Shown here: positions 1,106-51,506 of the stretch, piece after piece
How positions within the stretch are numbered: position 1 is the stretch's first letter
Layout: the number at the start of each line of letters is the position of its first letter
Sequence record: MW481326.1
DNA: 64,000 bases
Direction: 5' to 3' (one strand)
From: Escherichia phage vB_EcoM-Pr103Blw
Made by a program: the position numbers and the translations under genes
Notes under the pieces: model-generated
What the model saw: the letters and a program-made list of their open reading frames with translations, nothing else
Database searches by the model: none
What the model was told of the DNA's origin: nothing

Positions 1106-2458
1106 ATGTGGAATCCAATTGTTAATGTAGATATTACATTGAACACCGCAGGAACTACAAGAGAAGGTTTTGGGCTGCCACTATTTTTAGCTTCAACAGA
1201 TAATTTTGAAGAAAGAGTGCGTGGTTACACTTCCTTAACTGAAGTTGCTGAAGATTTCGATGAGAACTCTGCTGCATATAAAGCTGCTAAACAACTTTGG
1301 AGTCAGACTCCTAAAGTAACTCAGCTTTATATTGGTAGACGTGCTATGCAGTATACTGTATCAATTCCTGATGAAGTTTCTGAAAGCACAGATTATTCTC
1401 TAACTGTAGCTGTTAGTGGTGGAGTTTCTCAGCCATTCCAGTACACTGCACAGTCAGAAGATACTGCTGAGAAAGTACTACAGCAGTTTAAAACACAGAT
1501 TGAAGCAGAGCCTTCTGTTAAAGACCTTGTTACAGTTAATGTAACTGGTTCTGGCGGTTCAGCAACAATGGTAATTACCAAAGCTGGTGATAATGACTTC
1601 GTGAAGGTGACTTCTACAGCACAAACAGTATCAATTGCAAGTACTACTGCTGACACAGCATCGACTGCTCTGGCAGCTATTGAAGCTTATTCAACTGACT
1701 GGTATTTCATTGCAGCAGAAGACAGAACTCAACAGTTTGTCTTAGCAATGGCTTCTGAGATTCAAGCTCGCAAGAAGATTTTCTTTACAGCTAACTCCGA
1801 TGTAACAGCCCTACAAGGTACAGAATTAGCTAGTGCAAATGATGTTCCAGCACAACTTGCTAAGAATAAGTACACTCGTACAGTTTGCTTGTGGCATCAC
1901 ACAGCAGCAGAAGATTATCCAGAAATGGCATACATTGCTTATGGTGCTCCTTATGATGCAGGTTCAATTGCTTGGGGTAACGCACAGTTAACTGGTGTAG
2001 CTGCTTCTCTACAGCCATCTAACCAGAGACCTCTGACAAGTATTCAGAAGTCAGCTTTAGATGCACGTCACTGTAACTTTATTGACCTTGATGGTGGTGT
2101 TCCAGTGGTTCGTAGAGGGATTACTTCTGGTGGGGAATGGATTGATATCATCCGTGGTGTTGACTGGTTAGAATCAGACCTGAAAACTTCTCTGAGAGAC
2201 TTGCTAATTAATCAGAAGGGTGGTAAGATTACTTATGATGATACTGGTATTACCCGTATTCGTCAAGTCATTGAAACCTCTCTGCAAAGAGCAGTCAACA
2301 GAAACTTCCTGTCATCTTACACAGTTAATGTTCCTAAAGCCTCTCAAGTTGCTTTGGCAGACAAGAAAGCTCGTATCCTGAAAGATGTTACCTTCGCAGG
2401 TATCTTAGCAGGGGCTATCTTGGATGTTGACTTGAAAGGTACAGTGGCTTACGAATAA
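1106..2458 (+). CDS. putative tail sheath protein
   Basis: 450 aa; canonical order sheath-tube-chaperones-tape measure; size like P2 FI / Mu L; assignment positional. Confidence 0.5.
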   Translation: MWNPIVNVDITLNTAGTTREGFGLPLFLASTDNFEERVRGYTSLTEVAEDFDENSAAYKAAKQLWSQTPKVTQLYIGRRAMQYTVSIPDEVSESTDYSLTVAVSGGVSQPFQYTAQSEDTAEKVLQQFKTQIEAEPSVKDLVTVNVTGSGGSATMVITKAGDNDFVKVTSTAQTVSIASTTADTASTALAAIEAYSTDWYFIAAEDRTQQFVLAMASEIQARKKIFFTANSDVTALQGTELASANDVPAQLAKNKYTRTVCLWHHTAAEDYPEMAYIAYGAPYDAGSIAWGNAQLTGVAASLQPSNQRPLTSIQKSALDARHCNFIDLDGGVPVVRRGITSGGEWIDIIRGVDWLESDLKTSLRDLLINQKGGKITYDDTGITRIRQVIETSLQRAVNRNFLSSYTVNVPKASQVALADKKARILKDVTFAGILAGAILDVDLKGTVAYE

Positions 2459-12870: not shown

Positions 12871-15243
12871 ATGGCAGATTACAAATTGAGTCAATTAAAC
12901 TCAATCGACACAATTCGTTCAGAAGACCTATTGCACATCAGAGTTAAGAAAAGACCTGAAATGTTGGGTGACGAAGACCGTAGAATGACCTATCAAGACT
13001 TCTTAGCTTCCTTCAAACTAGAAAGGTTTGTTCAGATTGCTGGTAGCACTATGACGGGTGATTTAGGTATTGTCAAGTTACTTTACGGTGGCAAGGCTGT
13101 ATTTGACCCTACAGGCTCTTCTGAGATTACTATTGGGGATATTTTAAAGACTTTTAAAATTAACTCAAATGGTCTTAAACTCACTATTGCAGATGCTTCA
13201 AGGTCAGCAACTGTTTATCATACTTTGAATAAACCAAGCCCTAATGAACTTGGTATGAGAACTAATGAAGAGAATGATGCGAGATATGCAAGACTTGCTG
13301 TCACAAACACATTCTCTGGAACTCAGAACATTCAAGGTGATGCTAACTTACTTCGCCTTAGAAACCAAAATGCAAACAATGCACAATACATTGAAGGTGT
13401 AAACCTAGATGGTTCAGCTAGATGGTGGGTTGGTATTGGTAGTAATGGTTCTGATGAAGTGAAGCTGTATAATAACAAATATAATTCAGCCTTGACTGTT
13501 GCAAGCAATATCTCTGTTAATAAATCTTTAGCAATCACTGGTCAAGTTCAACCTTCAGATTTCTCTAACTTAGATGCTAGATACTTCACTCAGACAGTTG
13601 CTAATCAGAGATTTGCACAGTTAGCTGCTAATAACAATTTTACTGGAACAAACACATTCAGCAGAAACCTCACCATCATCAGTGATAGTGCTGCTTTAAG
13701 GTTGAAAAATGCAACAGCTAGCTCACTATTCATTCAGGGTGTTGACTCTCAGAACACTAACAGGTGGTATGTAGGGAACGGGGATAACACAGCCTCTGTG
13801 CTGTTACACAACTATGTACACGGTTCAAATATTAGGCTTGATAATGGCTATATCTCAGTCAACCAGAACTTCAGAATCACTGGTCAAGTTCAACCTTCAG
13901 ATTGGGCTAACATTGACTCTAGATATATTCCGGCAGCAACATTAAGTACTATTGCAAGAACTAATGCACAAAACACTTTTAACGGTGTACAGAAAGTTGT
14001 TACGGATAATGAAGCTCTAATTTTGAAAAACTCTACTCAGAACAGACCATTGTATATCCGTGGTGTGGACACTGCTAATGTGTCAAGGTGGTGGGTAGGT
14101 GTTGGTGGGGCAGATACTAATGATGTTACCCTAAATAACAGTTTTTCTGGCACTCAGTTAGTTTTAGGTAACTCATCTGCAAGCATCAATAAGACACTAT
14201 CTCTGACTGGACAGATTCAACCTTCAGATTTCTCTAACTTAGATGCCAGATATTATACGCAATCTGTCGCAAACTCTAGGTACATGCTTGCTGTATCTAC
14301 TGGTTCTGGTACAGAGGTTGGTGATGGAGATGGTATTGCTTGGAATGCTAGAACTGGTTTGTATAATGTTACAGGGAAAACTGGCGGTTCAACACAACTG
14401 GTTTATCAGATGTTTATCGGTGGTGGTTCAACACCAACTGCACAGTTGAAGTTTAGCTACGGGAATGGTGGTATTTTGTACAGGACAGCACGAGATGGGT
14501 ATGGTTTTGAGAAGGCATGGGCTAAAATCTATACAGACCAAGATAAACCAACCCCTTCAGATATTGGTGCATACACTAAAGCAGAAACTGACCAGAGAAT
14601 CGCAGAAGCAATTAGTGACTCTACAGACCTGAATAAAATCTATCCAGTAGGTATTGTGACGTGGTTTAACAGTAATGTCAACCCCAACACAGCACTTCCT
14701 GGGTTAACTTGGACGTACCTGAACAATGGTGTTGGTAGAACTATTAGAATTGCAGCAGCAAACGGTTCAGATGTTGCTACAACTGGTGGTTCAGACTCTG
14801 TAACGTTATCTGTTGGTAACTTACCTTCACATACACACAGCTTCTCTGCTACCACTTCATCATTTGATTATGGTACTAAGACTTCTAGCACAACTGGTAA
14901 CCATAACCACAACAGAGGTACTATGGAGATTACTGGTACAGTGGGTTACTTTAGAAGTGACTCTAGCAGCTTCTACACAGCAAGTGGTGCATTCACACTT
15001 GGTAGCTCAACTGCTTCTAAAGGCTTCACTGGTTCTAACTTTACTTATGGTATCCCTGCTAACTTTAATGCGTCAAGAACTTGGTCTGGCGTTACTAACA
15101 CAACTGGTAACCATAACCATACTGTAGGTATTGGTGCTCACAACCACACAGTTAGCGGTAACACAGGTGGTACTGGTTCTGGTTCAGCATTTAGTGTTAC
15201 TAACCAGTTCTATAAGTTAATGGCTTGGGTAAGAACTGCTTAA
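12871..15243 (+). CDS. long tail fiber protein with internal triplicated repeat and His-x-His tip
   Basis: 790 aa; three ~110-aa repeats (ITGQVQPSDFSNLDARY...); C-terminal HTHSFSATT/GNHNHTVGIGAHNHTV like the upstream fiber. Confidence 0.7.
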   Translation: MADYKLSQLNSIDTIRSEDLLHIRVKKRPEMLGDEDRRMTYQDFLASFKLERFVQIAGSTMTGDLGIVKLLYGGKAVFDPTGSSEITIGDILKTFKINSNGLKLTIADASRSATVYHTLNKPSPNELGMRTNEENDARYARLAVTNTFSGTQNIQGDANLLRLRNQNANNAQYIEGVNLDGSARWWVGIGSNGSDEVKLYNNKYNSALTVASNISVNKSLAITGQVQPSDFSNLDARYFTQTVANQRFAQLAANNNFTGTNTFSRNLTIISDSAALRLKNATASSLFIQGVDSQNTNRWYVGNGDNTASVLLHNYVHGSNIRLDNGYISVNQNFRITGQVQPSDWANIDSRYIPAATLSTIARTNAQNTFNGVQKVVTDNEALILKNSTQNRPLYIRGVDTANVSRWWVGVGGADTNDVTLNNSFSGTQLVLGNSSASINKTLSLTGQIQPSDFSNLDARYYTQSVANSRYMLAVSTGSGTEVGDGDGIAWNARTGLYNVTGKTGGSTQLVYQMFIGGGSTPTAQLKFSYGNGGILYRTARDGYGFEKAWAKIYTDQDKPTPSDIGAYTKAETDQRIAEAISDSTDLNKIYPVGIVTWFNSNVNPNTALPGLTWTYLNNGVGRTIRIAAANGSDVATTGGSDSVTLSVGNLPSHTHSFSATTSSFDYGTKTSSTTGNHNHNRGTMEITGTVGYFRSDSSSFYTASGAFTLGSSTASKGFTGSNFTYGIPANFNASRTWSGVTNTTGNHNHTVGIGAHNHTVSGNTGGTGSGSAFSVTNQFYKLMAWVRTA
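13537..14262 (+). repeat. in-frame intragenic direct repeats (3 copies, period ~330-340 bp) in long fiber gene
   Basis: actggtcaagttcaaccttcagat...ctagat recurs at about 13540, 13880 and 14210. Confidence 0.7.
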
Positions 15244-18519: not shown

Positions 18520-18849
18520 TTAATCTGCCAACCTTAAATTGAAATTAACACCAAATTTTTCACACACTTCCAACATATACTCAAGAGAGACATTCCCAGT
18601 GAGGTGGATTATGTTGGATACACGAGCTTGAGAGATACCACAAATTTTAGCGACTTGCTCTTGAGAAAGACCTCTGGATTTAATCTCTCTCTTAAAACGA
18701 TGTGCAACGAAGTCTCTCATTTCGTCTACATCCATTGGACAAATATAACTCTCCATTTCAGCCTCTCTATCAGCCTCCCAATCATCTTGTGGAGCATAAG
18801 GGTCAAAAACCTCATTCATCTTTCTTCTTCCGTTTACGTGAAGTATCAA
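18520..18849 (-). CDS. helix-turn-helix (XRE-like) DNA-binding protein
   Basis: C-terminal LSQEQVAKICGISQARVSNI resembles HTH_XRE motif. Confidence 0.5.
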   Translation of the reverse strand: MILHVNGRRKMNEVFDPYAPQDDWEADREAEMESYICPMDVDEMRDFVAHRFKREIKSRGLSQEQVAKICGISQARVSNIIHLTGNVSLEYMLEVCEKFGVNFNLRLAD

Positions 18850-19025: not shown

Positions 19026-19409
19026 TTAAATACCTGTGCAGCTTCTGTTTTCTAAGAAATACTCAACACCATACATAGCTTTTTGCATCAAATCTTCTTT
19101 AAACTGAATACGATGGTTAATCATGGCCTGTACATCAATATCATCATGGTGTTTCTCTTTAATGTTTGCAGATTGCAGGAAATACTCTGCAAGGACACGA
19201 TACTGATAGTCAGTTACCTTATCAGTCATCTCTGTCAAAGATTCTTCAGAGATTGGTTTAAGTAGTTCACCATTAGCTAGAGCAACACCTTTAACAATCT
19301 GGCAAGTGTCTTCTGGAACACCTGATAAGTCCACATTGGGAAGTTCTGTTGCATTGACTGGTAAATTTATTGCCATAACCATTGCAGCAGCTAATAAAAT
19401 CTTTTTCAT
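19026..19409 (-). CDS. secreted/periplasmic protein with signal peptide
   Basis: N-terminus MKKILLAAAMVMAINLPVNA typical cleavable signal peptide; AGG SD before ATG. Confidence 0.55.
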   Translation of the reverse strand: MKKILLAAAMVMAINLPVNATELPNVDLSGVPEDTCQIVKGVALANGELLKPISEESLTEMTDKVTDYQYRVLAEYFLQSANIKEKHHDDIDVQAMINHRIQFKEDLMQKAMYGVEYFLENRSCTGI

Positions 19410-19447: not shown

Positions 19448-19482
19448 AGTATAAAAATAAGCTATAACACCTAACTTGTCAA
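19448..19482 (-). promoter_or_regulatory. sigma70-like promoter (- strand)
   Basis: On - strand TTGACA-17 nt-TATTTT(TATACT) about 40 nt upstream of the 19409 start. Confidence 0.35.
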
Positions 19483-19630
19483 CAGATTTTATAGCTTATT
19501 TGGCAGATTTTTTTATAAGGCTACTGCCATCCTTCCATACCAGACTACACCATGCAAGACCAGACTTCACATCACCTTACTGTGCAATATATTACTTAAA
19601 AACCCTCTTAGAAGACTCTTAAGTGATGCT

Positions 19631-19670
19631 GGTGAGTATACGTTGGCTTATGCTGCTCAGTATACTCACC
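19631..19670. promoter_or_regulatory. perfect 11-bp inverted repeat (operator-like)
   Basis: GGTGAGTATAC-18 nt-GTATACTCACC; right arm overlaps -10 of the - strand promoter. Confidence 0.6.
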
Positions 19671-19686
19671 AAATTTTCTATGTCAA
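19659..19686 (-). promoter_or_regulatory. near-consensus sigma70 promoter (- strand)
   Basis: On - strand TTGACA-16 nt-TATACT. Confidence 0.5.
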
Positions 19687-19691
19687 CAACT

Positions 19692-19838
19692 TTATATAAA
19701 AGTCCTGATAACTATATGTGTTACAAAACAGAAGATTGTGAACAAGACACCCATTGCAAAGGATGTGTTCAAAAGTTTACTTGCTATGTAAGACAACACA
19801 AAGACAACTAATGCAAACAGAATGATTGTGCTTAACAT
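19692..19838 (-). CDS. small hydrophobic membrane peptide (48 aa, below ORF-track cutoff)
   Basis: ATG 3 nt after ligase stop; MLSTIILFALVVFVLSYIASKLL... two hydrophobic stretches. Confidence 0.35.
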   Translation of the reverse strand: MLSTIILFALVVFVLSYIASKLLNTSFAMGVLFTIFCFVTHIVIRTFI

Positions 19839-19841
19839 AGT

Positions 19842-20945
19842 TTACTCATAATCCCTAATAACTAGCCCAACAGGAAACTGTAAAGAACCCTTACGAGTCA
19901 TCTTCTGGAACTGAACCGTTAAAGGTTTCCCGATAAACTCTTCAGGATGCTCAGCAAGATACTGTTTCTTCTCATGAGTAGTCTTCCATGAGACATCTAC
20001 AAAGACGTTAGGAAGAGTCTCTACAACGAACTTACCGTGACCACGTTTATCAGTCTTGACACCAGTCACTTTAAACTCTTCAGTGTGCATCTTCTTGTGC
20101 TTAATCAAGAAGTATGAACGGTGACAACACTCATAGAAAGATTCTTCAGAGATTGAACGGTACATTGCACCTTCAAACTGAGCTTCAACCCACTTATCAT
20201 GGGCTTCATCAAACTCTTCCCAAGAATTTACACGACGAGACTTAACAGGAACAACTTTACAGCCGTCTCTGAAGTCATTCAATGGTGAAGTCTCAATAAT
20301 ATCTCTACGCTCAGGCCACGTCTTAGTACTGTCACAGATATCATACCAGTAAAACTTGAGTAGATGTCGGTCAGGATTGTCTTCATTTTTAATCATGGAG
20401 ACAATATCTTCTAAGTCCAACCCATGAGCATAGATTTCACCATCAAATTCATCAACATCTTTATGGAGCCTCAACATTGCCATAATGTCAGGTATTAGCT
20501 CAGTAGGAATTTTATAAATAGTGTTCTCACGAGAATATGCTGTAAATACACTACCAATACTTAAGTGTCTTGAAATTCTACAACGTACACCATCCAGTTT
20601 CGGTTGAGCATCAGCAGGGAACTTCAGATACTTTGCATGACTAACCTTTGCAGCATCATGAGCAAGCTGTACACCTACCTTCTCAGTATTCTGTGCAGAC
20701 TCTTTTGTGTAAGCATAACCTTTGCGGTCTACTTGTTTCTTGTACTTAGCAGAAACTTCAAAGAGAGCTTGCTGTTCAGCGTTACGCTCATTCTTTTTAC
20801 CAATGTTTTTAGGTTCTGCTGTATACTCTTCAAACATCATCTTGCCATTTTCTTTACCGTAGGTTGTAATAACTTTGTCACCTACAGCAACGCATGACCA
20901 GACGTTAAAAGAGCCGTCTTTATTTTGTTTGTACAGTATTGTCAT
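19842..20945 (-). CDS. ATP-dependent DNA ligase
   Basis: 367 aa; adenylation motif KLDGVR (lysine nucleotidyltransferase motif I). Confidence 0.85.
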   Translation of the reverse strand: MTILYKQNKDGSFNVWSCVAVGDKVITTYGKENGKMMFEEYTAEPKNIGKKNERNAEQQALFEVSAKYKKQVDRKGYAYTKESAQNTEKVGVQLAHDAAKVSHAKYLKFPADAQPKLDGVRCRISRHLSIGSVFTAYSRENTIYKIPTELIPDIMAMLRLHKDVDEFDGEIYAHGLDLEDIVSMIKNEDNPDRHLLKFYWYDICDSTKTWPERRDIIETSPLNDFRDGCKVVPVKSRRVNSWEEFDEAHDKWVEAQFEGAMYRSISEESFYECCHRSYFLIKHKKMHTEEFKVTGVKTDKRGHGKFVVETLPNVFVDVSWKTTHEKKQYLAEHPEEFIGKPLTVQFQKMTRKGSLQFPVGLVIRDYE

Positions 20946-26085: not shown

Positions 26086-26508
26086 ATGCAGAAAATGTTT
26101 GTTCACCCAGACATAGCTGACTTTGTTAGAGCTTTGCAGAAGTTGGAAGAACTTGACATTGCTGCTCAACGGGAATATGCTCACCATCACAGGAGAATGG
26201 TTGATATACAACATGAAATAGAGTTGTCTGAAAACTATGAAGATGACTTAAAATGCTCTGTATTTGAGCATATGAAAGATGTTGCTACAGCGAGACGTAA
26301 AGCTAAAGACACAGTTGCTTTACTAGATTCTCTTAAAAAGAGGTTGCAAAGTGGTACAGACCTGTGTAATCTAGCGTCACTGATTAATGATGTTGAAACT
26401 TCTTGGGATAGACATTACTATCCACGTTCTGAAAAGACACTTGACTTTTCTTCATCCGAAAACTTAAAATGTTCTAGAAAGAAACTTAACCAACTGAGAG
26501 AGAAATAA
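26086..26508 (+). CDS. hypothetical protein
   Basis: 140 aa, first gene of + strand block. Confidence 0.5.
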   Translation: MQKMFVHPDIADFVRALQKLEELDIAAQREYAHHHRRMVDIQHEIELSENYEDDLKCSVFEHMKDVATARRKAKDTVALLDSLKKRLQSGTDLCNLASLINDVETSWDRHYYPRSEKTLDFSSSENLKCSRKKLNQLREK

Positions 26509-46353: not shown

Positions 46354-48135
46354 ATGACTAAATCACTTTATGCAGTACCAGCAGGTTTAAACGCAGATGC
46401 TTACAAATCTGGTCACATCTACCAGTATCCTAGTGCAACAGAGTACTTGATGTTCAACCTGACACCACGTAGCGACAAATGGTTTAACAGCCCCTTAGCA
46501 ATTGATGGTGTAGTTGCTTTTGGTATTCAGCGTTTTGTTAAAGATTACCTGATAGACCACTGGAACGCCACCTTCTTCGAACGTGACAAAAAAGAAGCAA
46601 TTGACGAAATCTTAGAAGTCATGAACGGTGTTCTGGGTAAAGATGCTATTGGTCGAGAGCATTGGGAAGCACTTCACGACTTAGGTTATCTGCCAGTTGA
46701 AGTATACGCTGTAGAAGAAGGCACAGTTGTCCCTATGCGTGTTCCGATGATTGTTTTCCAGAACACTGTTTCAGGTTTCCATTGGGTAGCGGGGTATCTG
46801 GAAGATGCTTTCTCTGCTGAGATTTGGAAGGCTTGTACCATTGCAACTATTGCATTGCACTACAAACGTATCTGTAAGAAGTGGGCTGACCTTACTTGTG
46901 ACAACGACTTACATTTACCTTATCAGTGCCATGACTTCGCTATGCGTGGTATGTCTGGCTTTACTGATGACGCATTTAACGCTGTAGGTCACTTAACCAG
47001 CTTTAAAGGAACTGATAGCTTCCCTGCTGTGTATACAGCTAAACGTATCTATGGACAGTCCTACCCAATATCTGATATTGGTAGCTCTGTACCAGCCACT
47101 GAACACTCTGTAATGTGTGCAAACATTGCTTGGGAAGGTGGTAATGAGTTGATTGAAGAAGAAAGACGCTTTAAAGGTGAGTTACAAACCTTCCGTCGTT
47201 TCTTAACAGAAACTTACCCAACTGGTATTGCAAGTGTTGTTTCAGACACTTATAATTTCTGGAGAACTGTGTCAGAAATCTTACCAGCACTTCGTAAAGA
47301 GATTATGGAACGTGACGGCAAACTGGTAATTCGTCCTGACTCTGGAGACCCTGTACATATTGTCACAGGATACAAAGCAATCCATTTAGAGTGTGCTAAA
47401 AAGGCTTATTACGAACACCTAAGTAAGCTGGAAGCCAGCGACACAATGTTGAATGCTGTTCTGAACATGAAGCTTGAAAACATCAATTATGGTATTGCTG
47501 GATGGCTACTGTCAGAAGGCTACGAAATGGTTGTTGACAGAGAAGACTTTGAAGTTGCTGATACAGTGCTGTTGAAAAACGCTTATATGGTTGGTTCTGC
47601 AAATGTTGTAACACGTCCTGTAGCAGAGATTGATGGGGCTATTAAGACCTTGTATAACATCTTTGGAGGAACTATCAACTCTAAAGGGTTTAAGGTACTG
47701 GATGAGCACATTGGCCTTATCTATGGTGACTCTATCACGTTGGAACGCGCAAACGAAATCCTTAAGCGTTTGTATGAAATGGGTTTTGCAAGCTCTAACG
47801 TAGTGTTTGGTGTAGGTTCTTACACTTACCAGTACATGACTCGTGACACCTTTGCATTTGCTGTCAAAGCAACTCTTGCAAGCATTGGTGGTAAAGAGAT
47901 TATGCTTGCAAAAGACCCTAAAACAGATAGTGGTGTTAAGAAGTCTGCTTTTGGTGGTGTAGCCCCTATGTGGGATGGTGAGAATCTGAAAGCTGTAGAT
48001 GGCTATGGATTCCAGAGCTTTGCAGATGCACTTGAACATCCAGCTTGTGCTTTACATTTAGTCTTTAGCGACTCTGAGCAGTTCGGCTACACAACTCTTG
48101 GTGATATTCGAAATAATATTGACAAGCATCTTTAA
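46354..48135 (+). CDS. nadV: nicotinamide phosphoribosyltransferase-family protein (NAMPT/NadV-like; candidate nicotinamide ADP-ribose transferase)
   Basis: 593 aa; DAYKSGH near N-terminus, HDFAMRG, SFKGTD, SVPATEHS, VVSDTYNFW and RPDSGDP match conserved NAMPT segments. Confidence 0.9.
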   Translation: MTKSLYAVPAGLNADAYKSGHIYQYPSATEYLMFNLTPRSDKWFNSPLAIDGVVAFGIQRFVKDYLIDHWNATFFERDKKEAIDEILEVMNGVLGKDAIGREHWEALHDLGYLPVEVYAVEEGTVVPMRVPMIVFQNTVSGFHWVAGYLEDAFSAEIWKACTIATIALHYKRICKKWADLTCDNDLHLPYQCHDFAMRGMSGFTDDAFNAVGHLTSFKGTDSFPAVYTAKRIYGQSYPISDIGSSVPATEHSVMCANIAWEGGNELIEEERRFKGELQTFRRFLTETYPTGIASVVSDTYNFWRTVSEILPALRKEIMERDGKLVIRPDSGDPVHIVTGYKAIHLECAKKAYYEHLSKLEASDTMLNAVLNMKLENINYGIAGWLLSEGYEMVVDREDFEVADTVLLKNAYMVGSANVVTRPVAEIDGAIKTLYNIFGGTINSKGFKVLDEHIGLIYGDSITLERANEILKRLYEMGFASSNVVFGVGSYTYQYMTRDTFAFAVKATLASIGGKEIMLAKDPKTDSGVKKSAFGGVAPMWDGENLKAVDGYGFQSFADALEHPACALHLVFSDSEQFGYTTLGDIRNNIDKHL

Positions 48136-48149
48136 AAGTATATGATAAG

Positions 48150-48172
48150 AGGCTCCTACGGGAGCCTTTTTA
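48150..48172 (+). terminator. rho-independent terminator
   Basis: AGGCTCC-tacg-GGAGCCT followed by TTTTTAATTT. Confidence 0.6.
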
Positions 48173-48188
48173 ATTTCTGGAGAATGCT

Positions 48189-48533
48189 ATGGACAACCTT
48201 TCCATATGGTTTAACAAGAAACCTGTACAACCGAAATACTTACAAGTTGCCTATACAGACATCCTTGAAGTTCTCGGTAAAGAAAAGTTTGAAAAGTTTT
48301 GTGAAGGTATCTACAATCACCACTGCCAATTTGCTACAAAAGAGGGTATGTTTGTCATAGAACAGTTCTTTGGCAGAGACCCAGATGACTATGAAGAGAT
48401 TAGCTTTGTAATAAAATACATGATAGAGTATATTGAAAATCGTGGATTCGAAGTTAATCCTGAATTTTATGAACATGAGGGTGTACCTTTAGCAAAAGGT
48501 TTCGATGGCATACTCGTTAACTGGACTTGGTGA
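48189..48533 (+). CDS. hypothetical protein
   Basis: 114 aa. Confidence 0.45.
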   Translation: MDNLSIWFNKKPVQPKYLQVAYTDILEVLGKEKFEKFCEGIYNHHCQFATKEGMFVIEQFFGRDPDDYEEISFVIKYMIEYIENRGFEVNPEFYEHEGVPLAKGFDGILVNWTW

Positions 48534-51432: not shown

Positions 51433-51462
51433 TTGACAAGGGGCTTCAAAGCCCCTTAGAAT
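51433..51462 (+). promoter_or_regulatory. sigma70-like promoter with hairpin in spacer
   Basis: TTGACA-18 nt-TAGAAT; spacer holds AAGGGGC-ttcaaa-GCCCCTT stem-loop; upstream of rIIB. Confidence 0.4.
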
Positions 51463-51506
51463 AGCCTTACAAAATGATTTATTAACTAACAAGAGAGAGT
51501 AATAAG

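What the first reader, a model, noticed from the sequence alone, without database searches (positions are those of the whole stretch)
19631..19686. Perfect 11-bp inverted repeat overlapping a near-consensus minus-strand promoter
GGTGAGTATAC-18 nt-GTATACTCACC is a perfect inverted repeat whose right arm contains the -10 hexamer (TATACT on the minus strand) of a TTGACA-16-TATACT promoter reading toward the secreted-protein gene. A long perfect palindrome overlapping a promoter is the classic arrangement of a repressor operator, suggesting regulated expression of the downstream block.
Basis: seen in the sequence. Interest (0 to 1): 0.4.

Follow-up and report, generated by a model that had tools for sequence, protein, structure and literature searches.

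The report
Promoter of an orphan VIPR guide RNA
The palindrome sits on the conserved promoter that, in Felix-O1-like phages, launches a VIPR guide RNA (a recently described phage RNA-guided DNA-silencing system). The perfect 11-12 bp form is private to this phage, which has also lost the Vipr protein gene.

Summary
TGGTGAGTATAC (19630-19641) and GTATACTCACCA (19660-19671) form a perfect 12-bp inverted repeat with an 18-nt spacer. It overlaps a minus-strand TTGACA-16-TATACT promoter, here called P1.

The window is a Felixounavirus. The 73-nt P1 core is nearly invariant in 230 phage records, but only a 9-bp dyad (TGGTGAGTA/TACTCACCA) is conserved. The perfect extension is a clustered 2-3-nt change seen in no other record, which fits quasi-palindrome correction.

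P1 does not serve the secreted-protein gene directly; that gene has its own promoter, P2, overlapped by a second perfect repeat. P1 is followed by:
- a 19-20-bp RNA hairpin;
- a 12-unit array in 5-nt register (NN-DGY);
- a conserved tail.

This is the vrRNA1 unit of the type II VIPR locus of phage SUSP1, which carries the consensus P1 core (the window's copy differs at 3 positions). The window, and the complete genome of its closest relative SP22, have no vipr or vap gene, so this is an orphan guide locus.

The dyad's function is unresolved. I slightly favour an RNA stem-loop in read-through transcripts over an operator. No other copy exists, and no cognate binding protein is evident.

The parts
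19681..19686 (-). P1 -35 hexamer, TTGACA
   Evidence: Invariant in 33 related sequences.
19659..19664 (-). P1 -10 hexamer, TATACT, 16-nt spacer. It lies inside the promoter-proximal arm of the repeat.
   Evidence: One of 32 relatives has TATGCT.
19660..19671 (.). Inverted-repeat arm overlapping the spacer and -10 (plus strand GTATACTCACCA). The conserved core is TACTCACCA, 19663-19671.
19630..19641 (.). Inverted-repeat arm in the initially transcribed region, about +15 to +26 (plus strand TGGTGAGTATAC). The conserved core is 19630-19638. Positions 19639-19641 (TAC) are the private change that perfects the palindrome; relatives have CCC, or CCT in SP22.
19651..19654 (-). Predicted P1 transcription start, inferred from the -10 position and not mapped. 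The dyad axis is at 19650.5.
   Evidence: Inference.
19591..19629 (-). Hairpin B, a 14-bp (window) to 19-20-bp (relatives) G.U-rich RNA hairpin directly before the repeat array. It is a likely processing site at the 5' end of the vrRNA.
   Evidence: Folding at -17 to -20 kcal/mol, z -5 to -6. 31 variants keep the stem. Mature SUSP1 vrRNAs are ~100 nt, which excludes the leader.
19539..19598 (-). vrRNA-like repeat array: 12 units in strict 5-nt register (NN + AGT/TAT/TGC/GGT/TGT). Only 4 triplets are canonical GGY. The first two units overlap the 3' side of hairpin B.
   Evidence: Identified as a VIPR vrRNA through.
19502..19538 (-). Conserved 3' tail with hairpin GGCAG...CTGCC. The SUSP1 vrRNA1 tail has the compensated form GGTAG...CTACC.
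19455..19501 (.). IR2, a perfect 13-bp inverted repeat (AAATAAGCTATAA / TTATAGCTTATTT) with a 21-nt loop that contains the -35 of P2.
   Evidence: It is the only perfect repeat of >=11 bp in the whole SP22 genome and is kept in all relatives read.
19454..19482 (-). P2 promoter, TTGACA-17-TATTTT, immediately upstream of the 127-aa gene.
   Evidence: The orthologous site is annotated 'promoter' in phage ASO1B.
19026..19409 (-). 127-aa signal-peptide protein gene (phrog_4332, function unknown), the first gene after P2.
18520..18849 (-). XRE/HTH_3 transcriptional regulator, the third gene of the P2 operon and the only candidate DNA-binding protein nearby.
19692..19838 (-). Upstream 48-aa membrane ORF (phrog_22006). 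Its stop codon abuts the P1 cassette and there is no terminator before P1.

Best explanation
**Shown.**
- The window is a Felix-O1-like phage.
- The repeat lies on P1, a single-copy, near-invariant sigma-70-type promoter cassette placed right after the ligase block.
- P1 is followed by a short leader, a long G.U-rich RNA hairpin (B), a 12-unit array in 5-nt register and a conserved tail.
- This matches the vrRNA1 unit of the type II VIPR locus of phage SUSP1, whose P1 is the consensus core (the window's copy differs at 3 of 73 positions).
- This phage has no vipr or vap gene, so the locus is an orphan guide unit.
- Only a 9-bp dyad (TGGTGAGTA / TACTCACCA, axis on the predicted start site) is conserved.
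- The perfect 12 bp arose here by one clustered change, best explained as template-switch 'correction' of a quasi-palindrome.

**Inferred, and the mechanism I commit to.**
- P1's own transcripts begin inside the loop and cannot form the hairpin.
- The dyad therefore acts as an RNA stem-loop (11+3 pairs including G.U, about -15 kcal/mol; -20 here) in transcripts that read through from the ligase operon.
- Hairpin B is cut to free the 5' end of the vrRNA.
- The adjacent stem-loop then caps and protects the 3' end of the upstream mRNA.
- It overlaps the -10 only because the ~95-nt gap leaves no other room.

My confidence that P1 is the promoter of the vrRNA unit is about 0.8. My confidence in this specific role for the dyad is about 0.35.
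For: **Identity**
- Megablast places the window in Felixounavirus.
- The 73-nt P1 core is 100% identical to the consensus in 101 of 230 records and differs by at most 3 positions in 127 more.
- The cassette occurs once per genome.
- The array is found only at this locus and only on the sense strand.
- The inserted gene in wV8-type relatives is Vipr: PDB 36pp 'SUSP1 Vipr protein', E = 6e-128, and phrog_4652.
- The VIPR preprint reports vrRNAs of 9-16 GGY/NN repeats plus a structured tail, with vrRNA1 detected upstream of vipr by sRNA-seq.
- In SUSP1 the order is P1, hairpin B, array, tail, vipr.
- Neither the window nor the complete SP22 genome has vipr or vap.

**Private extension**
- No record carries the TA change.
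- Three of the 12 differences from SP22 across 436 nt are adjacent, at 19639-19641.

**RNA reading**
- The consensus hairpin folds at -15.3 kcal/mol, z -2.9; the window's at -20.3, z -6.4.
- G.U pairs extend the stem on the sense strand only.
- A G-to-A variant turns the outer U.G pair into U-A.
- The neighbouring elements B, T1 (the terminator-like tail hairpin found after the first array in most relatives) and C (the tail hairpin present in this window) are RNA structures; T1 and C show compensatory alleles, and B's variants keep the stem.
- No terminator separates the upstream genes from P1 in any of four upstream contexts.
- Hairpin-in-promoter composites recur in this genome, for example at 51433.
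- The dyad is kept in vipr/vap-less genomes, which argues against Vap1 as a binder.
Against: - No transcription start, processing site or RNA 3' end has been mapped in this phage.
- The sequence family is too uniform for a covariation test. The arms never vary, and more distant relatives (phiEa104, Yersinia P778) lack the cassette altogether.
- Two natural variants (CAGG, CTGG) break an inner pair of the predicted RNA stem.
- The hairpin has no U-tract on the sense strand.
- The dyad axis falls on the predicted start site and the half-sites are about 3.1 helical turns apart. An operator explains both features more naturally.
- The window's array has the lowest share of canonical GGY triplets of 82 arrays (4 of 12), and its P1 core differs from the consensus at 3 positions, as many as or more than nearly all of the 230 records. 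The locus may be decaying here.
Confidence: 0.4

Rival explanations
1. The dyad is an operator on DNA. A phage or host protein binds the two 9-bp half-sites, which are centred on +1 and lie on the same face of the helix. This throttles the strong vrRNA promoter, much as Aca repressors bind inverted repeats in strong anti-CRISPR promoters.
For: - The arms are invariant and the loop is variable.
- The 3' half of the spacer is conserved beyond what a promoter needs.
- The dyad axis (19650.5) coincides with the predicted start site, and the half-site centres are 33 bp apart, about 3.1 turns.
- P1's own RNA cannot form the hairpin.
- An HTH_3 regulator is encoded three genes downstream.
- In vipr+ relatives the type II accessory protein Vap is a predicted DNA binder.
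- Widely spaced dyads overlapping a -10 have precedent, for example BirA bioO (my own knowledge).
Against: - There is no second copy in the window or in the 87-kb SP22 genome.
- The palindrome at P2, the promoter of the HTH gene's own operon, has an unrelated sequence. One regulator cannot serve both.
- The dyad is retained unchanged in genomes that lack vap.
- A 33-bp centre-to-centre spacing is too wide for a simple HTH dimer.
- No binding data exist.
Confidence: 0.25
2. The dyad has no function of its own. The upstream arm is conserved as part of the promoter and the downstream arm as part of the vrRNA leader. The complementarity is a relic of an inverted or direct duplication. A 16-nt direct repeat (19626-19641 and 19650-19665) also exists. 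The perfect form is a neutral templated mutation in a decaying, vipr-less locus.
For: - Direct repeat D5.
- The whole cassette is near-invariant, so arm conservation is not specific evidence.
- The window's cassette carries unusually many private changes and its array is the least canonical of 82.
- Variants next to the 9-bp core are not compensatory.
Against: - An exact 9-nt reverse complement within about 40 nt is expected by chance at roughly 1e-4.
- The 3' half of the spacer is normally free to vary in sigma-70 promoters, yet it is invariant here while the 5' half varies.
- The cassette is retained essentially unchanged in about 110 vipr-less records.
Confidence: 0.2
3. The hairpin is an intrinsic terminator for antisense (plus-strand) transcription. 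On the plus strand the stem is followed by AAATTTTCT. The C-rich complement of the array just upstream would also load Rho. Together they would shield the ligase and polymerase genes from antisense read-through.
For: - The plus-strand fold is -13.9 kcal/mol for the consensus and -22.2 for the window.
- The stem is followed by AAAUUUUCU.
- The array complement is 42% C and 9% G.
Against: - The loop is 18-24 nt, far larger than in typical terminators.
- The terminator scan did not call it.
- No conserved plus-strand promoter lies upstream. The only candidate, at 19566, is specific to this window.
Confidence: 0.07
4. This rival applies to the window only. The private change creates a second perfect TATACT at about +13 to +18. 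That would act as a sigma-70-dependent promoter-proximal pause element, as in lambdoid PR' promoters.
For: The duplicated TATACT lies 24 bp downstream of the -10.
Against: Relatives have GGTACT, which lacks the critical A at position 2. This cannot be the conserved function.
Confidence: 0.05

Closest known systems
Type II VIPR locus of Escherichia phage SUSP1 (Vipr + vap1 + vrRNAs; bioRxiv 10.64898/2026.04.26.720920 and 10.64898/2026.04.26.720927)
   Same: - Same genomic slot, after the ligase block in an Ounavirinae phage.
- The same P1 promoter cassette (SUSP1 carries the consensus core; the window's copy differs at 3 of 73 positions).
- The same order: leader, hairpin B, repeats in 5-nt register, then a tail hairpin with a compensated stem.
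- vrRNA1 expression from this position was seen by sRNA-seq in SUSP1.
   Different: - The window has no vipr and no vap and carries a single array.
- Only 4 of 12 triplets are canonical GGY.
- The tail is followed by IR2/P2 and the 127-aa gene instead of vipr.
- The preprints do not describe the native promoter or its dyad.
PeSL composite promoter/stem-loop cassettes of T4-type phages (PMC2839356, PMC4122927)
   Same: A near-consensus early promoter is fused to a stem-loop in a short intergenic gap, at the edge of a region where gene content varies between close relatives.
   Different: - PeSLs are dispersed in many copies and act as terminator/promoter units. This cassette is single-copy per genome.
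- Its stem-loop has no U-tract.
RNase III processing hairpins between phage T7 early genes (my own knowledge)
   Same: Long intergenic RNA hairpins in polycistronic early RNA. Cleavage there releases the downstream RNA and leaves a protective structure on the upstream one. This is the logic I propose for hairpin B plus the dyad hairpin.
   Different: Cleavage has not been shown here. Hairpin B is a continuous G.U-rich stem rather than a T7-type stem with an internal loop.
Aca-type autorepression of strong anti-CRISPR promoters; BirA bioO (my own knowledge)
   Same: Inverted repeats overlap the -10 and start site of a strong promoter in a phage conflict locus. BirA's operator has about 12-bp arms and a 16-bp spacer.
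   Different: No cognate protein has been identified, there is only one site, and the spacing is wide.

Membership tests
VIPR system (type II, SUSP1 clade) | Vipr (RAMP-like) protein gene in the locus | tested here: not met
   tblastn of Vipr (ASO1B_086) against the window and the complete SP22 genome returned only noise, E >= 0.6. The gene is present at 98-100% identity in 15 of 24 related loci and in 118 phage records.
VIPR system (type II, SUSP1 clade) | vrRNA with 9-16 GGY/NN repeats | tested here: inconclusive
   There are 12 units in strict 5-nt register. G is at the middle triplet position in 11 of 12 and Y at the third position in 12 of 12. Only 4 of 12 are full GGY, the lowest share among 82 arrays.
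VIPR system (type II, SUSP1 clade) | Conserved structured 3' tail after the repeats | tested here: met
   The tail GGATGGCAGTAGCC...CTGCC is essentially identical to the commonest tail in relatives, apart from one extra A in the loop. SUSP1's vrRNA1 tail is the compensated GGTAG/CTACC form.
VIPR system (type II, SUSP1 clade) | Accessory vap gene | tested here: not met
   No tblastn match to vap1 (ASO1B_085, phrog_5926) in the window or in SP22.
VIPR system (type II, SUSP1 clade) | Orthologous position and promoter of SUSP1 vrRNA1 | tested here: met
   The same P1 cassette (differing from the SUSP1/consensus core at 3 of 73 positions in the window) and hairpin B occur upstream of the array in SUSP1 (L035) and in the window.
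VIPR system (type II, SUSP1 clade) | Expressed vrRNA that loads into Vipr and has a natural target under the 1-nt-skip rule | tested here: inconclusive
   Expression and loading cannot be tested with these tools. An exact 10-NN skip-1 pattern found nothing in genome contigs or viral contigs. No guide from the clade matches the window or SP22 above noise. A mismatch-tolerant pangenome search was not possible.
Sigma-70 promoter | -35 and -10 hexamers with a 16-18-nt spacer | tested here: met
   TTGACA-16-TATACT matches at 11 of 12 positions. The hexamers are invariant in 32 of 33 sequences.
Sigma-70 promoter | Mapped transcription start | not testable with these tools
   The only indirect evidence is the sRNA-seq signal for vrRNA1 downstream of the consensus P1 in SUSP1.
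Repressor operator | Dyad symmetry overlapping core promoter elements | tested here: met
   The 9-bp conserved dyad (12 bp here) covers -19 to -11 and about +15 to +23.
Repressor operator | Cognate DNA-binding protein, or further sites forming a regulon | tested here: not met
   There is no other copy in the window or in the SP22 genome. The nearby HTH gene's own promoter carries an unrelated palindrome. Protein binding itself was not tested.
Intrinsic terminator | G+C-rich stem followed directly by a U-tract on the transcribed strand | tested here: not met
   On the sense strand the stem is followed by AGCAUCAC, and the terminator scan did not call it. A U-rich run exists only on the antisense strand.
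PeSL mobile promoter/stem-loop cassette | Many dispersed copies flanking variable ORFs | tested here: not met
   There is one copy per genome in 23 IMG/VR contigs and in SP22.

The most novel reading that the evidence does not exclude
About half of Felix-O1-like phages, including this one, have lost vipr and vap. They still keep a near-invariant, strongly promoted orphan vrRNA unit whose promoter carries a conserved dyad. The most novel reading is that this orphan RNA is functional without a cis-encoded effector. It could be a guide that borrows Vipr from co-infecting relatives or satellites. Alternatively it could be a decoy that titrates a rival's Vipr, an RNA anti-VIPR. In either case the dyad would be the switch that times its expression.
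Probability: 0.2. Interest if true: 0.75.

Novelty: new variant of a known kind. Interest (0 to 1): 0.45.

Why it matters
VIPR was described only in 2026, and the preprints I read say nothing about how native vrRNAs are transcribed or controlled. This analysis contributes three things:
- It pins the native vrRNA1 promoter to a 73-nt cassette that is almost invariant across three Ounavirinae genera, and it finds a conserved dyad centred on the predicted start site.
- It proposes hairpin B as the 5' processing element.
- It indicates that roughly half of the phage records with this cassette have no detectable vipr.

If the orphan units are active, guide-only phages would add a new layer to inter-phage conflict. 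If they are relics, they mark how VIPR loci are lost by recombination between their repeated modules. For the flagged palindrome itself the lesson is modest. Its perfection is a one-off templated mutation, not a conserved operator.

Tried and rejected
**Known RNA families.** Rfam searches of the region and of the longer ASO1B module returned nothing above noise.

**Regulon.** Exact and <=2-mismatch searches for the 11-mer found no further copy. The related motif TANNCTCACCA is enriched (6 found against 0.63 expected), but the sites lie mostly inside or antisense to genes, so I dropped it as a promoter class.

**Covariation test in distant relatives.**
- The metagenome scan used too loose a pattern and returned chance hits plus one sequence identical to the consensus.
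- Erwinia phiEa104 and Yersinia P778 have ligase followed directly by the next gene and no cassette.

**Genome terminus or packaging site.** One record (warpig) ends inside the array. However, UAB_Phi87 has mapped 608-bp terminal repeats while its cassette lies at 58 kb in the record. I rejected this idea; the break is probably an assembly artefact in the repeats.

**Replication origin, R-loop or primase-site array, and TRAP-like protein-binding RNA.** I entertained these for the array before the VIPR match. supersede them.

**PeSL membership.** Rejected because the cassette is single-copy.

**Self- or cross-targeting.** No vrRNA of the clade matches the window, SP22 or P1 under skip 0-3 rules beyond noise. 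Exact skip-1 target scans were empty.

**Literature.**
- The Felix O1 genome paper lists five promoters but not this one.
- I found no transcript-start mapping for this genus.

**HTH regulator.** A comparison with solved structures was uninformative.

Full report
**1. The observation**

On the plus strand, GGTGAGTATAC (19631-19641) and GTATACTCACC (19660-19670) are separated by 18 nt. The flanking T and A extend the repeat to 12 bp.

On the minus strand, TTGACA (19686-19681), a 16-nt spacer and TATACT (19664-19659) match the sigma-70 consensus at 11 of 12 positions. This is the best minus-strand match in the window.

The 11-mer has no other exact copy in the window. Only two perfect inverted repeats of at least 11 bp (loop 3-30 nt) exist in all 64 kb, and both lie in this one intergenic region. 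The second is 19455-19467 / 19489-19501. First-order Markov simulations expect 0.68 such repeats per window at >=11 bp and 0.23 at >=12 bp.

**2. Where we are**

The window is a Felixounavirus, close to wV8, Felix O1 and especially SP22. The repeat lies inside a minus-strand block that runs DNA polymerase, small ORFs, ligase (19842-20945), a 48-aa ORF (19692-19838), the gap, a 127-aa signal-peptide protein (19026-19409), a 70-aa protein, an HTH_3 regulator (18520-18849), then DHFR and thymidylate synthase. GC skew simply follows the direction of transcription.

**3. What is conserved**

In 33 related sequences the cassette begins directly after the stop codon of whichever gene lies upstream; four different contexts were seen. 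It reads AAAGTTG-TTGACA-TAGAAAATTTGGTGAG-TATACT-GAGCAGCATAAACCAACGGGTACTCACCAGCATCACTTAAGAG....
- Among 230 phage records the 73-nt core is identical to this consensus in 101, and differs at 1-3 positions in 127 more.
- Neighbouring coding DNA shows 86-97% mean pairwise identity.
- The few variable positions fall in the 5' half of the spacer and in the loop between the arms.
- The 9-nt cores TGGTGAGTA and TACTCACCA never vary.
- The dyad axis (19650.5) falls on the start site predicted from the -10 (19651-19654), and the half-site centres are 33 bp apart.

**4. What is private to this phage**

No other record has the window's ...CGTATACTCACC. The consensus is CGGGTACTCACC, with CAGG in SP22 and CTGG in pEP20.

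Against SP22 the 436-nt region differs at 12 positions. Three of them are adjacent, at 19639-19641 (TAC against CCT), and a fourth lies at 19647. A clustered change that turns an imperfect repeat into the exact complement of the other arm is the signature of quasi-palindrome template-switch mutation (my own knowledge). It also creates a second TATACT and lengthens a 16-nt direct repeat. The 'long perfect palindrome' is therefore not the family feature.

**5. What P1 drives**

The secreted-protein gene has its own promoter, P2 (TTGACA 19482-19477, 17-nt spacer, TATTTT), which is annotated as a promoter in phage ASO1B. P2 is overlapped by the second perfect repeat, IR2.

Between P1 and P2 lie three elements:
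- Hairpin B (19591-29): 14 bp here and 19-20 bp in relatives, rich in G.U pairs and therefore strand-specific, at -17 to -20 kcal/mol.
- An array (19539-98) of 12 pentamers in strict register, NN + [G/A/T]G[T/C].
- A tail hairpin, GGCAG...CTGCC (19502-38).

Across relatives I found 67 distinct arrays of 9-19 units. All are on the sense strand and only at this locus. G makes up 42% and C 9% of the array bases. The NN positions are hypervariable between otherwise near-identical phages. In 17 of 22 loci the first array ends in a hairpin followed by a U5 tract, 152-193 nt from the predicted start.

**6. Identification**

The same kind of heterogeneous GGTNN array occurs in at least 48 unrelated IMG/VR contigs. 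In three of them it sits next to a phrog_4652 protein.

The 195-aa gene inserted at this locus in wV8-type relatives also belongs to phrog_4652. It matches PDB 36pp 'SUSP1 Vipr protein' at E = 6e-128.

Two 2026 preprints describe VIPR systems:
- The components are a Vipr RAMP-like protein, an accessory Vap protein and ~100-nt vrRNAs.
- Each vrRNA has 9-16 GGY/NN repeats plus a structured tail.
- The NN dinucleotides read double-stranded DNA with a one-nucleotide skip and silence transcription.
- The systems are aimed at satellites and rival phages.
- In SUSP1, sRNA-seq found one vrRNA upstream of vipr and three downstream.

In SUSP1 the order is P1 (identical to the consensus), leader, hairpin B, 13 repeats, tail, then vipr. 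The predicted primary transcript is about 154 nt while the mature RNA is about 100 nt. The leader and hairpin B must therefore be removed (inference).

P1 is thus the native promoter of vrRNA1. The preprints do not discuss it or its dyad.

**7. The window is vipr-less**

tblastn finds no Vipr or Vap1 in the window or in the complete 87,251-bp SP22 genome, which has the same short architecture.
- 9 of 24 IMG/VR loci lack vipr.
- 230 phage records carry P1 but only 118 encode a Vipr at >=90% identity. These counts include duplicate and partial records.

The window's array has the fewest canonical GGY triplets of 82 arrays, 4 of 12. Its P1 core differs from the consensus at three positions, as many as or more than nearly all of the 230 records. 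No natural target was found by exact skip-1 scans, and no guide from the clade targets the window, SP22 or P1.

**8. What the dyad does**

Because P1's own RNA starts inside the loop, only two kinds of role are open: a site on DNA, or a hairpin in RNA that reads through from the ligase operon.

For the RNA role:
- The sense strand forms 11+3 pairs including G.U, at -15.3 kcal/mol (z -2.9); in the window it is -20.3 (z -6.4). DNA or the antisense strand keeps only 9 pairs.
- A natural G-to-A change converts the outer U.G pair to U-A.
- The other structured elements in this gap (B, T1, C) behave as RNA structures: T1 and C have compensatory alleles and B's variants keep the stem.
- Nothing terminates transcription upstream of P1.
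- The dyad persists in genomes without the DNA-binding Vap1.
- If hairpin B is the cleavage site that frees the vrRNA, the stem-loop just upstream would cap the 3' end of the severed ligase mRNA. This is the logic of T7 RNase III sites.

For the DNA role:
- The dyad axis lies on +1.
- The half-sites face the same side of the helix.
- The 3' half of the spacer is conserved.
- An HTH regulator is encoded nearby.

Against the DNA role:
- There is a single site.
- The palindrome at the HTH operon's own promoter is unrelated in sequence.
- The spacing is wide.

No covariation test is possible. The family is too uniform, and the next relatives lack the cassette. My estimates are RNA stem-loop about 0.35, operator about 0.25, no independent function about 0.2, and minor alternatives for the rest.

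**9. Verdict**

The flagged feature is real and sits on an important, previously uncharacterised promoter. Its eye-catching perfection is a private mutation. The promoter serves a VIPR guide RNA rather than the secreted-protein gene, and the operator reading is only one of two comparably supported mechanisms. The wider point of interest is the widespread orphan vrRNA unit in vipr-less Felix-O1-like phages.

Noticed in passing
window 19455-19501: IR2 is a perfect 13-bp inverted repeat (AAATAAGCTATAA / TTATAGCTTATTT) whose 21-nt loop holds the -35 of promoter P2. It is conserved in all relatives read and is the only perfect repeat of >=11 bp in the whole SP22 genome. P2 heads the operon that encodes the HTH regulator, so IR2 is a better operator candidate than the flagged repeat. 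It could alternatively be the terminator-like end of the P1 transcript.
   Followed up: partly
window 19539-19598, plus L001-L024, L035: Hypervariable pentamer arrays, NN + GGY, occur only on the sense strand and only at this locus. They were identified as VIPR vrRNAs. The window's copy is the least canonical of 82 arrays.
   Followed up: yes
IMG/VR loci L180-L258: At least 48 unrelated viral contigs carry heterogeneous GGTNN arrays, 81 arrays in all. Many fill the gap between two same-strand ORFs, and some occur in tandem runs of 7-10 arrays separated by fixed linkers (L189, L199). In L233, L196 and L198 they adjoin phrog_4652 (Vipr) genes.
   Followed up: partly
L202 about 14802-14940 (minus), L252 about 1369-1500 (minus): Two arrays are followed within ~20 nt by sequences that look like a tRNA T-arm (GGTTCGATTCC). 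This suggests a vrRNA next to, or fused with, a tRNA-like element.
   Followed up: no
hairpin B variants: In one variant, recovered twice among the fetched loci, the apical part of hairpin B is inverted between the flanking CACTTAAG / CTTAAGTG repeats. In that orientation G.U pairs become A.C mismatches. This looks like an inversion by recombination across the stem.
   Followed up: no
window 15290, 16612, 19630, 19661, 26176, 52833: The motif TANNCTCACCA occurs 6 times against 0.63 expected. The copy at 26176 follows a TTGACA-17-TATGCT match in the divergent early region, and its downstream sequence resembles the P1 leader (CAACGGG...CTCACCA..TCAC).
   Followed up: partly
window 51433-51468 (+); also 48119-48195 (+) and 59047 / 59910 (+): Other promoter/hairpin composites exist. 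At 51433 a GGGGCTTCAAAGCCCC hairpin fills the spacer between TTGACA and TAGAAT. At 48119 a promoter is followed at once by a terminator hairpin. The two copies of the 39-bp repeat promoter are each followed by a GGGGAGGG...CCTTCCCC hairpin.
   Followed up: partly
L049 (phage warpig, MN850637.1, end of record): A GenBank 'complete genome' ends inside the array, 142 nt upstream of the 127-aa gene. Several other records are opened near this locus. These are probably assembly breaks in the repeats rather than physical genome ends.
   Followed up: partly
Only 17 Salmonella-phage records encode Vipr while 75 carry the P1 cassette. For Escherichia phages the counts are 77 and 114. Loss of vipr seems concentrated in the Salmonella-infecting lineage, which includes Felix O1 itself.
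   Followed up: no
window 19566-19593 (+): A plus-strand TTCACA-16-TATATT match (10 of 12) points antisense through hairpin B and P1. Its -10 depends on bases specific to this window, so it is probably fortuitous.
   Followed up: partly
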